In this document: positions 7,297 through 23,862 of the stretch, in pieces
Layout: each line of letters starts with the position of its first letter
Numbering within the stretch: position 1 is the stretch's first letter
DNA from: Lingula anatina
Taxonomy: Eukaryota; Animalia; Brachiopoda
Length of the DNA: 64,000 bases
Assembly (NCBI GenBank): GCA_051362555.1
Contig: CM120648.1
Location: 19,278,587 to 19,342,586, forward strand
Direction of reading: 5' to 3'
Notes under the pieces: model-generated
Told to the model about the DNA's origin: nothing
Database searches by the model: none
Seen by the model: only the letters and a program-made list of their open reading frames with translations
Program-made: the position numbers and the translations under genes

Positions 7297-8239
7297 ATGG
7301 AAGCCATGTTAGGGCAGTCTAGACGAGGTGTAAATCCAAGATCAGGACAGGTGACAGTACAGACACAACCTCCATTAGCTGAACAGGAAACAAATACAAC
7401 ATCAGCTACACATCCTAATGTTTTCTTTGACAAGGCAGAATGTGTGCGTTCCTTCAGTACTAAACTGGAAGATGATAGAAGAATACTCATAACTACTGAC
7501 ATAACTGGGTTAGCCATAGATAAGGAACACATGTTTGTTGTGGATAGTGACAACAACAGAACAAAAGTATTCACACATGAAGGACAATTTAAGTTTGACA
7601 TTAAAGTAAACACACCATGTGATGTGGCTGTGTCACAGACTGGTCACCTGTATATAACATCACTGGGTGACAGTTGTGTCCAAGTGTACTCCACCAGAGG
7701 TCAGCAGGTGACAACCATGGGTCAGGGTCTACTGAAGTTACCACGGGGTATTACACTGAACAGACAAGGTCATGTGATGGTTTGTGACAGAGAAAAGAAG
7801 TCCATCTTCACATTCCATGCAGACAGTGGACAGCTCCTGAACACTATTCCACTCAGTATGTGTGAAGGCCCAGTGTACATCACAGTGAACAGTGTGAATG
7901 ATAACATTGTGATATCAGACATGTGGGGAGACTGTGTACATGTGCTGTCACCTACTGGTGATCATCTGTACAAGTATGACGGCAGCAGAGAAGGCAGTAA
8001 ACTGAGGTTACCATGTGGAGTGTGCACAGACAGCTATGGTCACATCTTCATTGCTGACAGGGTTAACAACAGGATAGTGGCACTGAGTCCACAGGGACAG
8101 TTTATCAGATACATTGTCACTGAGGATGATGGGTTGAGGTATCCCTGGGCAGTAGTCATCAACCCTGCTACTGGTCAACTGGTGGTGGGAGAGATGAGGG
8201 GCAATGTTAAGACATTCCAGTACATTGAACTGAAACAAG
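7297..8239 (+). CDS. Exon 1: NHL-repeat beta-propeller (TRIM2/3-like C-terminal domain)
   Basis: Blades [90 protein letters not shown]; donor CAAG|GTGAGT, phase 1. Confidence 0.9.
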
Positions 8240-9062
8240 GTGAGTAACATGTATTAACTGTGGATAGATATGATTATTATGTAAAAATATTTGAAAGTTA
8301 ATTAGTCTTACAATGTTTTTATCCATGAATATGCTTGCCTTTATTTCAATAAAAAAAAACTTTTTAAGCATATTTAAATTCAGTGAGCACACAGCTGTGC
8401 TTTAGTAAAAATGTATTTAGAGTGGAGACATTTTCTATTGTTAATACTTTACTGTTACTGACCAATTTCCATGAACCCATTAGTGATTAGGATTTTGAAT
8501 AAGGATGAAGAACTCTTTTTAATGGAATGTATGGTATGCTTCATTTGTATTTTTATTAAGTCACAAGAAAAATATTTTACATTGTTTAATCCCTGAACTT
8601 CTTGTCCATTTGTCAGCAAAGAACAACTCAAATCTCACATCAATTCTTCATATTCTTCATCTTGTAGCTGTTCATGAAAGTTTTAGATATACCTCAATAT
8701 ATCTCAAATGTACTTTGTCAAGTTTCTCGATGTCTTACCACTTCTAGATTCAAAGACATTTCATCACCAGTTTGTTGTTAACACACACAAATAAATTAAA
8801 TGTTGAAGTACTTTGGATGATACCTTATTTTCCTGACTTTGTGGATTGTTATTTGCAAATAAAACTAGCAGACGACCATTTTTCATGAAATGGAACTACT
8901 TTTCACAGGAAGTAGTGTATTCATACACAACAGTGACCTTGGGTTTGGAATACAAAAAAATAGTACATGCATTCATACTGTCACAGCATGCAAATTATAA
9001 TGAAATATACAAAACTAAACACATTTTTATGTAACACAAAAAGTTAAATGCATTTTTATTTA

Positions 9063-22700: not shown

Positions 22701-23862
22701 ACAAAGCTCTTAACCAGGCCCATGGGGATAATCAGTTAGAAAGTTTACCTACGGCAGTGACACATGGGATTGCTGGGGTTCTAAGACAGCTCCCCACTAA
22801 TACAAGCAGCATGCATATTACATTCAATGTTCAGCAGGTTTACCACAATTACTCAGAAAAGGAATCAATGCCAAGCATGAAAGAGAAAGATGTGACAGCG
22901 TCATTTCATAAACATGTCCCTACAAGTGTGAAAAAACGACTGAATGAGACACTTTGTCAAGATGATGTATGGGACCAAGTGAAGAAGATGTATGGCATTT
23001 CAGATGAAACCCCATGTCCTCCTGATGTTGTGGCTTTTTTGTTGTCTCAAGTTGAGGGTTCTATTGCATCTTTCATCAGTGTGTTGTTAAAGTTAAAGGG
23101 ATGCCACACAGAAGGAGAACTAGACATTCCACAAGATTTGATTGATGAAGTCAAGGTAATTGACCATTTGGTCTAATGAAGTAATCAGCTTTTTGTGGAA
23201 TTTGTCACTTAAATAAACAGTATGACATGTTTTGGCTTCAGTGATTTTACACTATGGATACCTCTGAAATATCTGTACTCCTTGGCAAATTTATCTCTTC
23301 AAGATCTTCATAAAACGTTATTAAGACTTATATACAGAAAGAGAAAATAATGATATTTTGATTGTAACTTGTTTTAAATAGCAAACAATTGATTGTTGCC
23401 AGAAGTGAACTTTATGATAAGGTTTGAACAAGCATCTATCCACACAAACTACTAACTCACTTTATATTTCTTTTCTAGAATGGACTTAAGAGTGAAATGG
23501 AGTATAAGAAACTTAGACAGAATGGAATTCGCTTTGCTGAAGAAATTCATATTGACATTGGAAGAATTTTGAATTACTTTTATCAATATGATATGATACC
23601 CGATGAGGAGATTACAGTGCTTAGAAATAGTGCCAGGGAAAATCCACATGATGCCTGTAGAAAGTTGTTTGAAAGACTAATTGCAAGCAGTCCTGAAAAA
23701 CGACCCATCGAATGCTTGAAAGATGCCCTCAGACAATACCAACATTCCCATCTGGCAGATGAACTAGAAGTTAGCAGCCAGTATGTAGAGGATGAATTAC
23801 AGAAACAGGAAATTGGAAGTGATCGGCCTTTTTGTGAAGAGCCGTTGTCGTTAGGAATTTAA
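7297..23862 (+). CDS. Multi-domain Roco protein NHL-Roc-COR-ZU5-UPA-(Q/P-rich)-death-domain-CARD, ~1905 aa, 15 coding exons
   Basis: join(7297..8239,10914..11162,11377..11457,11678..11743,12300..12356,12745..12819,16534..16833,17272..17411,17577..18791,18933..18981,19777..20462,20795..20971,21327..21515,22049..23155,23479..23862); all introns GT-AG, phases compatible, 5718 nt, no internal stop. Confidence 0.8.
9560..9753. mobile_element. EnSpm/CMC-type terminal fragment in intron 1
   Basis: Subterminal gcggctag/ccggca repeats ending in TTCTGTAAGGG (reverse complement CCCTTACAGAA). Confidence 0.45.
10585..10708 (+). mobile_element. 3' end fragment of the Helentron-like family at 26667-34707
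   Basis: Shares gcagtctgtttggtaaattt with 32669-32688 and the 3' end tgtctgtacatttgacagctttgctgccttgtt with 34674-34706. Confidence 0.7.
10914..11162 (+). CDS. Exon 2: Roc GTPase N-terminal part (P-loop, switch I); absent from the ORF track
   Basis: TTTCAG| acceptor; [68 protein letters not shown]...; |GTAAG donor. Confidence 0.92.
11377..11457 (+). CDS. Exon 3 (81 nt, Roc insert)
   Basis: TTATAG| ... |GTAATT, phase 1-1, [27 protein letters not shown]. Confidence 0.75.
11678..11743 (+). CDS. Exon 4 (66 nt, Roc insert)
   Basis: TTGTAG| ... |GTAAGT, phase 1-1, [22 protein letters not shown]. Confidence 0.7.
12300..12356 (+). CDS. Exon 5 (57 nt, Roc insert)
   Basis: Pyrimidine tract + AAG| ... 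G|GTATAT, phase 1-1, [19 protein letters not shown]. Confidence 0.6.
12745..12819 (+). CDS. Exon 6 (75 nt, Roc insert)
   Basis: Pyrimidine tract + AAG| ... G|GTACAG (weak donor), phase 1-1, [25 protein letters not shown]. Confidence 0.5.
13035..15858. mobile_element. Non-autonomous EnSpm/CMC-type DNA transposon (2.8 kb) in intron 6
   Basis: TIRs CCCAGACAGCCTCAGT / ACTGAGGCTGTCTGGG, 2-bp TT duplication, subterminal CCAGATCTGG palindrome arrays at both ends. Confidence 0.88.
14053..15485 (-). mobile_element. Small gag-only LTR retroelement (Gypsy/Mag-like), decayed
   Basis: Diverged direct repeats 14053-14268 and 15264-15485; minus-strand PBS TGGCGACGAGG (15252-62); PPT AAGAAAGGAAGGGA just before TGT (14269-82); gag remnants [13 protein letters not shown] and [22 protein letters not shown]. 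Confidence 0.8.
16137..16390. mobile_element. Harbinger-like MITE (CATTCCCA family), degenerate
   Basis: Ends ggaccattccca / atgggaacccagt with agatcgatcta motif; related to 40634, 45621 and 55788 copies. Confidence 0.5.
16534..16833 (+). CDS. Exon 7: Roc G3 / switch II
   Basis: [31 protein letters not shown], canonical Roc motif; TTTTAG| and |GTAAG. Confidence 0.93.
17272..17411 (+). CDS. Exon 8: Roc G4
   Basis: YWIDAIHTY...[11 protein letters not shown] (Roc-type THxD); CCAG| and |GTAGG. Confidence 0.9.
17577..18791 (+). CDS. Exon 9: Roc end and COR domain
   Basis: [74 protein letters not shown]| and |GTAAGT. Confidence 0.93.
18933..18981 (+). CDS. Exon 10 (49 nt linker)
   Basis: [27 protein letters not shown]; supplies the phase 0-to-1 change needed to join exons 9 and 11. 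Confidence 0.75.
19777..20462 (+). CDS. Exon 11: ZU5 domain and start of UPA-like domain
   Basis: [26 protein letters not shown]...[24 protein letters not shown] (ZU5, UNC5/PIDD type); KRLSALVFG...LMVCCVNDT (UPA-like). Confidence 0.9.
20795..20971 (+). CDS. Exon 12: UPA-like region
   Basis: GTAG| ... |GTAGG, phase 0-0, open. Confidence 0.8.
21082..21256. mobile_element. hAT-type MITE in intron 12
   Basis: TIRs CAGGCCCTTAGCCAG / CTGGCTACGGGCCTG; no clean 8-bp duplication. Confidence 0.7.
21327..21515 (+). CDS. Exon 13: UPA-like region end
   Basis: TTTTAG| ... FVCKIHIKQ ... |GTAAGT, phase 0-0. Confidence 0.8.
22049..23155 (+). CDS. Exon 14: Q/P-rich low-complexity linker plus degenerate death-domain-like region
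   Basis: TTTCAG| ... |GTAAT; FQSQ repeats; [46 protein letters not shown] resembles UNC5-type death domains. Confidence 0.82.
22373..22506 (+). repeat. 66-bp coding tandem duplication ([17 protein letters not shown][P/S]YHQQ x2)
   Basis: Two copies differing at one base. Confidence 0.95.
23479..23862 (+). CDS. Exon 15: CARD-like death-fold domain and stop
   Basis: [66 protein letters not shown]| acceptor; TAA 23860-62. Confidence 0.85.
   Translation, partial: NGLKSEMEYKKLRQNGIRFAEEIHIDIGRILNYFYQYDMIPDEEITVLRNSARENPHDACRKLFERLIASSPEKRPIECLKDALRQYQHSHLADELEVSSQYVEDELQKQEIGSDRPFCEEPLSLGI

What the first reader, a model, noticed from the sequence alone, without database searches (positions are those of the whole stretch)
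7297..23862. Candidate undescribed immune/death receptor: NHL-Roc-COR-ZU5-UPA-DD-CARD Roco protein
Seen: the separate ORFs plus six exons missing from or unrecognisable in the ORF track join through GT-AG introns into one ~1905-aa frame with intact Roc motifs ([23 protein letters not shown]). Established: the well-known Roco proteins (LRRK1/2, DAPK1, MFHAS1) carry LRR, ankyrin, kinase or DD modules, while ZU5-UPA-death-fold is the output module of PIDD1, UNC5, NLRP1 and CARD8. Inference: a kinase-less sensor (NHL propeller) - switch (Roc-COR dimeriser in place of NACHT) - effector (DD+CARD) protein, i.e. a Roco-based inflammasome/PIDDosome analogue. I do not recall this combination but cannot confirm novelty without a search.
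Basis: partly seen in the sequence, partly recalled or inferred. Interest (0 to 1): 0.9.

Follow-up and report, generated by a model that had tools for sequence, protein, structure and literature searches.

The report
Brachiopod Roco receptor with hypervariable propeller
This expressed, spliced lamp-shell gene encodes a 1905-residue protein that joins a propeller domain, whose likely binding face differs sharply between otherwise near-identical gene copies, to an LRRK2-type GTPase module and a predicted caspase-recruitment tail, so it is likely an intracellular immune sensor that would trigger cell death.

Summary
The gene is real: 15 GT-AG exons give 1905 aa without stops, and RNA reads show 12 of 14 junctions, including NHL-Roc and COR-ZU5. 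Its nearest proteins are Lingula anatina models that RefSeq splits into pieces. NHL, Roc (G1-G4 intact), COR and ZU5-UPA are confirmed, the last bundle is predicted to be a CARD, and the 'DD' remains unproven. Kinase-less Roc-COR with death folds is already catalogued in invertebrates. Among 142 other Roc-COR hits, two carry ZU5/FIIND and one NHL; none carries both. All 28 listed RNA coding variants are nonsynonymous, and the same NHL exon type is spliced to three different downstream modules. Best reading: a young, diversifying family of Roco-switched immune sensors with a CARD output, possibly self-cleaving at F1244|C1245. Ligand, switch and output are untested. The scan earlier noted kinase-less Rocos and a hypervariable sea-urchin NHL family on other DNA, never joined.

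The parts
7090..7296 (+). 5' UTR, continuous with the first coding exon in most reads
   Evidence: depth rises from about 7090, first mates on the minus strand in stranded runs
7297..8239 (+). Exon 1: conserved N-terminal extension (aa 1-45) and six-bladed NHL propeller (aa 46-312) with hypervariable loops at P-2, P-1, P+1, D+1 and D+2 of each blade
   Evidence: Pfam NHL 6.7e-18; TRIM3/TRIM2/TRIM71/Brat NHL hits, best 1.3e-30; variability
10914..11162 (+). Exon 2: Roc N-half, G1 at 11024-11047, G2 at 11102-11116
   Evidence: junction reads
11377..12819 (+). Exons 3-6 (81, 66, 57 and 75 bp, all phase 1-1): about 130-aa Ser/Glu-rich insert inside Roc; an exon-5-skipping form is seen in reads
13022..15871 (.). 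Element with inverted ends inside intron 6 (not part of the protein)
   Evidence: inverted repeat I14; opposite-strand repeat reads
16534..17411 (+). Exons 7-8: Roc C-half, G3 at 16677-16694, G4 at 17370-17381
   Evidence: Pfam Roc 4.2e-7; paralog P0155 hits prokaryotic Roc-COR 4wnr (1.1e-15) and LRRK2
17577..18791 (+). Exon 9: end of Roc, COR-A (17769-18248) and presumed COR-B
   Evidence: Pfam COR-A 1.1e-18; COR-B by position only
18933..18981 (+). Exon 10: linker micro-exon
   Evidence: both junctions in reads
19777..20462 (+). Exon 11: linker, ZU5 (19884-20366) and start of UPA; candidate self-cleavage site Q1243-F1244|C1245 at 20328-20336
   Evidence: Pfam ZU5 1.7e-18; family profile aligns to UNC5B ZU5 and UPA start, 7.5e-14; site alignment
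20795..21515 (+). Exons 12-13: rest of UPA
   Evidence: ESM Atlas ZU5/UPA clusters 0.94-0.96 for paralog P0154; relative P0145 Pfam UPA 0.007; AF2 model of this part low confidence
22049..23155 (+). Exon 14: Q/P-rich linker (22049-22801), beta-prone RHIM-like motif (22811-22849), six-helix DD-like bundle (22889-23155)
   Evidence: composition and motif alignment; AF2 pLDDT 79; Foldseek top hit UNC5B TM 0.48, prob 0.35, E 2.1
23479..23862 (+). Exon 15: CARD-fold domain (23479-23784) and stop
   Evidence: model of 97%-identical paralog matches MAVS and Apaf-1 CARDs, target TM 0.74-0.80, prob 0.99-1.0, rmsd about 2 A, E above 0.001; paralogs hit Pfam CARD (P0201 2.1e-7)
24022..24027 (+). Candidate polyadenylation signal
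   Evidence: only AATAAA within 740 bp after the stop
25494..25842 (+). Broken partial copy of a related NHL exon
   Evidence: 77% DNA identity to 7877-8169, 61-65% protein identity to the model and TRIM-NHL proteins, frameshifted

Best explanation
The gene is one copy of a young Lingula family whose NHL propeller varies on one face, and it likely encodes an intracellular immune receptor: the propeller would bind a foreign ligand, the Roc-COR GTPase would act as the dimerising switch, and the ZU5-UPA-CARD tail would recruit a CARD caspase. SHOWN: one spliced, expressed frame; intact G motifs; family tips of 0.007-0.025 changes per site on a 0.97 stem; variability confined to two loops per blade; mosaic framework sites; the same NHL exon type joined to different downstream modules. 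INFERRED step 1: the variable loops are the ligand face (their spacing matches the Lin41 RNA contacts) and pathogen pressure drives them. INFERRED step 2: ligand binding shifts the GTP-dependent COR dimer, as in other Roco proteins (established for other family members, recalled), bringing two tails together. INFERRED step 3: at rest ZU5 holds the helical bundle as in UNC5B; the ZU5 may already be self-cleaved at F1244|C1245 (about even odds), so that UPA-linker-bundle-CARD could be released as in NLRP1/CARD8. INFERRED step 4: the CARD oligomerises and recruits a caspase-Y-type CARD caspase, leading to cell death or gasdermin-E cleavage.
For: Gene and expression. Variable face: 25 of 30 loop sites against 6 of 223 others carry 3 or more residues among the 5 closest copies. 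A test corrected for picking the offsets afterwards gave 0 of 20000 shuffles reaching the observed value, and five held-out copies gave 22 of 30 against 13 of 223. 43 of 143 loop-site comparisons need 2-3 base changes against 14 of 1398 elsewhere. 28 of 28 listed RNA coding variants are nonsynonymous, expected fraction 0.71-0.77. Lin41 RNA contacts come in pairs 17-18 residues apart (PMC5908797), matching P-1 to D+1/D+2 spacings of 16-19 here. 52 of 91 framework site pairs are incompatible, suggesting recombination. Module swapping: loose ends at 8239 match this Roc exon, the P0159-type Roc exon and the Roc-less P0204. Among 142 related Roc-COR proteins, 43 carry Death, 12 TIR, 8 HEPN, 6 GT4-conflict, 4 caspase and 3 CARD domains, and only 2 a kinase. 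The caspase fusions link Roc-COR directly to caspase. CARD fold. Cys/Ser/Thr is kept after the buried aromatic in all 12 Lingula ZU5 rows; Cys can be the nucleophile and Gln before Phe is tolerated in CARD8 (PMC3210808). Lingula has 6 caspase-Y paralogs and no APAF-1 or caspase-2 (PMC11463336) and a listed GSDME (PMC11508797).
Against: No ligand, infection response, GTPase activity, cleavage or caspase binding was tested. The same loops are equally variable in Lingula TRIM-NHL proteins (mean 17% against 73%), so the variation could be selected in the TRIM pool and merely inherited through recombination. No codon-level dN/dS was possible (no paralog DNA). The RNA table showed only 40 of 244 rows, scored one base at a time, from mixed paralogs and individuals. 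The top-face assignment rests on repeat position and spacing, not on a structural superposition: the TRIM71 alignment was not displayed. The DD-like bundle does not match a profile of 30 Roco death domains (hhalign probability 1.4%). The histidine needed upstream in CARD8 has no conserved counterpart (H1215 is Pro or Asp in relatives), and the ZU5 is closest to ZO-1 and UNC5B, which are recalled as non-cleaving. CARD fold hits had E above 0.001. Paralog evidence comes from fragmented RefSeq models; one (P0158) runs into an unrelated EXS domain.
Confidence: 0.6

Rival explanations
1. Passenger variation: a recent chimera in which an exon from the large TRIM-NHL pool was shuffled onto a Roco gene. 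The loops vary because gene conversion imports tracts selected in the TRIM E3 ligases, and the fusion has little receptor function of its own.
For: The NHL exon is 62-68% identical to Lingula RING-TRIM-NHL proteins, whose loops are equally variable. Framework sites are mosaic (52 of 91 pairs incompatible). A broken NHL copy lies 1.6 kb downstream.
Against: Within the family the framework is 93-96% identical among most copies and distinct from the TRIM copies (at most 81%), so the loops diverged after the fusion family formed. The 1905-aa frame, G motifs and CARD are intact and expressed.
Confidence: 0.12
2. Non-cleaving, UNC5B-like signalling scaffold: the same sensor and switch, but the ZU5-UPA-bundle stays intact and opens conformationally, and the CARD signals to NF-kB/interferon-type adaptors (MAVS/RLR-like) rather than to a caspase.
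For: ZU5-UPA is closest to ZO-1 and UNC5B. The bundle's top fold hit is UNC5B. The best CARD fold hits include MAVS and MDA5/RIG-I CARDs. No conserved catalytic His.
Against: The buried Phe plus a Cys/Ser/Thr nucleophile is kept across the Lingula ZU5 family, where UNC5B has Leu-Gly. Apaf-1 and caspase-9 CARDs score equally.
Confidence: 0.2
3. Allorecognition or self-monitoring receptor: the variable face reads a polymorphic host molecule (or a guarded host RNA or protein) rather than a pathogen ligand.
For: Extreme variation between copies and individuals: only 10-14% of NHL-exon reads are at least 99% identical to this copy in three runs, and 0 of 578 in a fourth.
Against: Many co-expressed paralogs rather than one polymorphic locus; cytoplasmic layout with no signal peptide or membrane segment apparent in the sequence; relatives carry pathogen-conflict effectors such as HEPN, GT4 and TIR. 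Run differences may reflect population or cryptic species.
Confidence: 0.08

Closest known systems
Kinase-less invertebrate Roco proteins (Trichoplax repertoire, Civiero 2014 PMC4104024; Aplysia TIR-ROCO, PMC9334734; Owenia ROC-caspase, PMC11463336)
   Same: Roc-COR core flanked by a repeat or sensor domain and a death-fold or other immune effector; no kinase.
   Different: None of the passages read lists NHL or ZU5-UPA; no hypervariable sensor is reported in them.
Brown-algal LRR-ROCO candidate immune receptors (Teng 2024, PMC11378527)
   Same: Expanded Roco family whose N-terminal repeat domain is under diversifying selection on its ligand face.
   Different: LRR with exon shuffling there; a single-exon NHL propeller here. 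This one is animal and has a ZU5-UPA-CARD output.
NLRP1 and CARD8 (FIIND = ZU5-UPA followed by CARD; D'Osualdo 2011, PMC3210808)
   Same: Sensor and nucleotide switch upstream of ZU5-UPA and a terminal CARD; buried Phe followed by a possible nucleophile.
   Different: Roc-COR GTPase instead of NACHT; UNC5/ZO-1-type ZU5, not FIIND; QF|C instead of SF|S; about 280-aa Q/P-rich linker and an extra helical bundle before the CARD.
PIDD1 and UNC5B (ZU5-UPA-DD)
   Same: ZU5-UPA followed by a six-helix bundle whose top fold hit is UNC5B.
   Different: One ZU5, DD identity unproven, added CARD; no LRR or transmembrane part; caspase-2 reported absent from Lingula.
Amphioxus Roc-COR-DD-FIIND-UPA-DD (P0084, XP_078589129.1), brittle-star Roc-COR-kinase-ZU5 (P0010), mussel NHL-Roc-COR-HEPN (P0067)
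   Same: Uncharacterised Roco proteins that carry ZU5-type or NHL domains.
   Different: Each has only one of the two. They fall in other clades; a single ZU5-Roco clade is rejected (p-AU 4e-7, quick tree), so the ZU5 fusions look independent.
TRIM-NHL proteins (TRIM2/3, TRIM71/Lin41, Brat)
   Same: Six-bladed NHL propeller; the loops that bind RNA in Lin41 correspond by spacing to the variable loops.
   Different: No RING, B-box or coiled coil; binding residues are conserved in Lin41 but hypervariable here.

Membership tests
Roco proteins | Roc GTPase directly followed by COR | tested here: met
   Pfam Roc and COR-A in order; paralog hits Roc-COR structures 4wnr, 3dpu and LRRK2
Roco proteins | Intact G1-G4 nucleotide-binding motifs | tested here: met
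   motifs at aa 352, 378, 539, 624, same pattern as in relatives
Roco proteins | GTP hydrolysis and COR-mediated dimer cycle | not testable with these tools
   needs biochemistry
NLR/STAND receptors | NACHT or NB-ARC ATPase | tested here: not met
   no such Pfam hit in the 10 larger exons or in paralogs; it may work like an NLR but is not one
Autoproteolytic ZU5-UPA (PIDD1, NLRP1, CARD8) | ZU5 followed by UPA | tested here: met
   Pfam ZU5 1.7e-18; profile to UNC5B runs into UPA; Atlas ZU5/UPA clusters 0.94-0.96. UPA has no direct Pfam hit in the model.
Autoproteolytic ZU5-UPA (PIDD1, NLRP1, CARD8) | Buried Phe followed by a Ser nucleophile, with a supporting His | tested here: inconclusive
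   Phe kept; nucleophile is Cys (Ser or Thr in relatives); no conserved His; Cys and Gln are chemically allowed (PMC3210808 passages)
Autoproteolytic ZU5-UPA (PIDD1, NLRP1, CARD8) | Observed self-cleavage | not testable with these tools
   needs expression and immunoblot
Death domain (aa 1690-1778) | Six-helix death fold with DD sequence signature | tested here: inconclusive
   six helices, pLDDT 79; UNC5B top hit TM 0.48, prob 0.35, next best TM 0.28 or less; no Pfam, PDB-sequence or profile match; second structural aligner unavailable
CARD (aa 1779-1880) | CARD fold and sequence profile | tested here: met
   fold matches MAVS, Apaf-1 and caspase-9 CARDs, target TM 0.74-0.80 (on a 97%-identical paralog); Pfam CARD above cut-off in P0201, below it in the model
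TRIM-NHL | [quoted passage not shown] | tested here: not met
   the frame starts 45 aa before the propeller; only NHL-type hits
RHIM / amyloid signalling motif | RHIM core sequence | tested here: inconclusive
   beta-prone motif conserved before the bundle but no Pfam RHIM hit at E up to 1 in 14 family proteins; resemblance is recalled

The most novel reading that the evidence does not exclude
Lingula has a parallel, GTPase-switched class of intracellular immune receptors. A recombining pool of NHL-propeller exons supplies new specificities; these are plugged into Roc-COR or directly onto the effector; and a cysteine-nucleophile ZU5 releases a UPA-amyloid-motif-CARD fragment that polymerises and activates caspase-Y and gasdermin E, standing in for the apoptosome and PIDDosome this animal lacks. 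It would be a Roco inflammasome, evolved independently of NLRP1.
Probability: 0.27. Interest if true: 0.88.

Novelty: new variant of a known kind. Interest (0 to 1): 0.66.

Why it matters
Roco GTPases are studied almost only through LRRK2 and DAPK1. Their many kinase-less invertebrate forms have been suspected of immune roles without a clear ligand-binding signature. This family shows one in an animal: a propeller face that diversifies while the switch stays 93-97% conserved. It offers natural variants for testing whether a Roc-COR dimer can act as a ligand-gated immune switch, the role NACHT plays in NLRs. It also points to NHL propellers as variable pattern-recognition domains. RefSeq splits the gene into two or three 'uncharacterised', 'UNC5-like' or 'roco4-like' models, which would hide the architecture from domain surveys.

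Tried and rejected
No whole genome was held, so copy number and paralog DNA are unknown. No RNA holder was listed by index; raw same-species runs were laid instead. ESM Atlas on the DD-like region gave only sub-0.9 RuvB-lid hits, rejected as uninformative. Sequence and profile searches for a death domain there found nothing. The UPA part of the P0058 model was below pLDDT 50 and not used. VIA-align was busy at all 8 tries. The complex prediction ZU5-UPA with the helical bundle was not available, so there is no verdict on that contact. One search had the blade-4 anchors off by one; the corrected numbers are. The TRIM71 alignment was not shown because designed proteins outranked it. A local NHL profile found 0 of 148 Roc-COR hits, including P0067, so it is insensitive; Pfam cut-offs of 1e-6 and 1e-7 could also miss weak NHL domains. 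The careful tree did not finish; quick trees were used (68 of 153 long hits, 35 rows). Rejected: separate genes for NHL, Roc-COR and ZU5-CARD (junction reads); a dead GTPase (motifs intact); common descent of all ZU5-bearing Rocos. Ten paper searches found no description of this architecture. The Lingula immune-repertoire paper of Gerdol et al. 2018 (recalled) is not held, and Fig. 2 of PMC11378527, with about forty animal ROCO architectures, could not be seen.
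Full report
Gene. Reading the window on the + strand gave 15 exons with GT-AG introns and consistent phases, 1905 aa, no internal stop. Raw RNA reads of the same species label were laid on 6950-24200. Nine of 14 introns appear as exact joints, two with one or two variant letters and one approximately; 12356>12745 and 20462>20795 were not among the rows shown (29 hidden). 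Stranded runs place the RNA on the + strand. Exon depth was about 15-46 in X4 and mostly under 5 in X1 and X3, so expression differs between samples. Most reads are 90-99% alike and so represent the family, not only this copy.

Organism and annotation. The COR exon finds Lingula anatina proteins at 94-97%. RefSeq holds the family in pieces: P0001 is NHL-Roc-COR, 94% identical with the same splices; P0002 is Roc-COR-ZU5-UPA, 90%; P0058, P0199, P0200 and P0202 are UPA-linker-bundle-CARD tails. I infer they are one split paralog.

Domains. Pfam supports NHL, Roc, COR-A and ZU5. Roc carries a roughly 130-aa insert encoded mostly by four micro-exons; G1-G4 are intact. The ZU5 family profile aligns to UNC5B into the first UPA strands and the Atlas gives ZU5/UPA clusters. 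A model of paralog P0058 is confident only for residues 264-465. Its last bundle matches MAVS, Apaf-1 and caspase-9 CARDs (E above 0.001 because the query was multidomain and short). The window's own 'DD' folds into six helices; its top hit is UNC5B at TM 0.48, probability 0.35, and it has no sequence match to death domains. I call it DD-like, unproven. At the PIDD/NLRP1 cleavage position the model reads Q1243-F1244|C1245. All 12 Lingula rows keep Cys, Ser or Thr there, but no upstream His is conserved. PMC3210808 (passages) says Cys can be the nucleophile, S295Q did not affect CARD8 cleavage, and two histidines were crucial. Cleavage is therefore open.

The variable face. Ten Lingula sequences share the same N-terminus and propeller. 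Against the model, 30 positions (two before and one after the Pro, two after the Asp of each blade) are 17-35% identical, while the other 223 are 83-96% and the first 36 residues 83-100%. I chose those offsets after seeing the alignment. An offset-blind profile peaks at the same places, a best-five-offset permutation gave 0 of 20000, and five held-out rows gave 22 of 30 against 13 of 223. Many loop changes need two or three base changes (43 of 143 against 14 of 1398). In reads on 7000-8300 the 28 coding variants among 40 rows shown (of 244) are all nonsynonymous, against 71-77% expected; 12 of the 19 past residue 60 fall on loop sites. Roc-COR of six paralogs is 93-97% identical. Lin41 binds RNA with residues paired 17-18 apart on the upper propeller face (PMC5908797, passages), the spacing seen here; this is inference by spacing, not superposition. 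Framework sites are mosaic (52 of 91 pairs incompatible), and Lingula TRIM-NHL proteins show the same loop variability, which supports a shared recombining pool and is also the main caveat.

Module swapping. Reads leaving the NHL exon at 8239 continue into three different exons: this Roc exon, one matching P0159 (another Roc) and one matching P0204, an NHL-linker-bundle-CARD protein with neither Roc nor ZU5. The tail also occurs behind other heads (P0103 DD-CARD, P0145 zinc fingers, P0201 tandem tails), and P0004 has the same Roc-COR with another tail.

Wider relatives. HMMER of P0002 against 1.84 billion representatives gave 5041 hits at E up to 0.001; the best 150 were examined. Eight belong to these Lingula families. 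The other 142 were scanned with Pfam at cut-offs from 1e-3 to 1e-7: Death 43, TIR 12, HEPN 8, GT4-conflict 6, caspase 4, CARD 3, kinase 2, ZU5/FIIND 2, NHL 1, NHL plus ZU5 0. Named ones are annelid, mollusc, echinoderm, hemichordate and amphioxus proteins. In quick trees the family is a very young radiation on a long stem, and holding it together with the amphioxus and brittle-star ZU5 Rocos is rejected (p-AU 4e-7; group named after the first tree was seen).

Literature. Ten searches found no account of this layout. I read passages only of PMC8195603 (AP-GTPase/COR with variable LRR sensors and swapped effectors in bacteria), PMC4104024 (17 Trichoplax Rocos with CARD, death, TPR and LRR domains), PMC9334734, PMC11463336, PMC11508797, PMC9573974, PMC7159879, PMC3210808 and PMC5908797. 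For PMC11378527 I read passages and section 10 and searched its one held supplement for ZU5, NHL, Lingula and CARD without hits; its Fig. 2 was not visible. Gerdol 2018 on Lingula immunity is recalled and not held. Prior listing of the architecture in a figure or supplement cannot be excluded.

Earlier scan notes (unchecked AI notes) describe several kinase-less invertebrate Rocos and a sea-urchin NHL family with one fast-changing face; none joins the two, and sequence look-ups found no look-alike windows.

Verdict. Observation confirmed; interpretation partly supported. It is a Roco by membership, not an NLR or TRIM; it probably works like an NLRP1-type sensor-switch-effector. The class is known; the NHL-Roc-COR-ZU5-UPA-CARD combination and the diversifying sensor face appear undescribed. 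Interest 0.66.

Noticed in passing
P0007 (Owenia), P0011 (Lingula), P0023, P0113: Roc-COR fused directly to a caspase domain; P0007 also has an N-terminal Bcl-2 domain. Suggests Roc-COR dimerisation can activate caspases.
   Followed up: partly
P0204 (LOC106159462): NHL-linker-bundle-CARD with no Roc-COR or ZU5; its junction type is seen in reads (23 reads in X4 and X5).
   Followed up: partly
P0167-P0171, P0177-P0181: Expanded Lingula RING-TRIM-NHL proteins with the same hypervariable loops (pairs near 79% in framework, 4-41% at loop sites).
   Followed up: partly
window 22811-22849: Short beta-prone motif before the helical bundle, conserved in the family and more RHIM-like in P0103; possible amyloid signalling motif.
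   Followed up: partly
window 22257-22433: Reads with an in-frame 162-base shortening in the Q-rich exon, at a 66-bp duplication: linker length varies between copies.
   Followed up: no
window 13022-15871: Intronic element with inverted ends and internal repeats; many opposite-strand repeat-derived reads.
   Followed up: no
window 28271-30461: Pogo/Tigger-like DDE transposase ORF (Pfam DDE_1 3.3e-17) with a C-terminal Cys/His finger.
   Followed up: no
window 45916-48381 and 53276-55695; 43325-44839 and 61951-63518: A 2.4-kb inverted duplication at 83-98% and a 1.6-kb direct duplication at 68%.
   Followed up: no
window 7140-7177: Short upstream ATG frames in the 5' UTR that stop before the main start.
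   Followed up: no
P0084/P0187/P0188 (Branchiostoma): Roc-COR-DD-FIIND-UPA-DD proteins whose cleavage position aligns to a non-canonical sequence; an independent Roco-FIIND fusion.
   Followed up: partly
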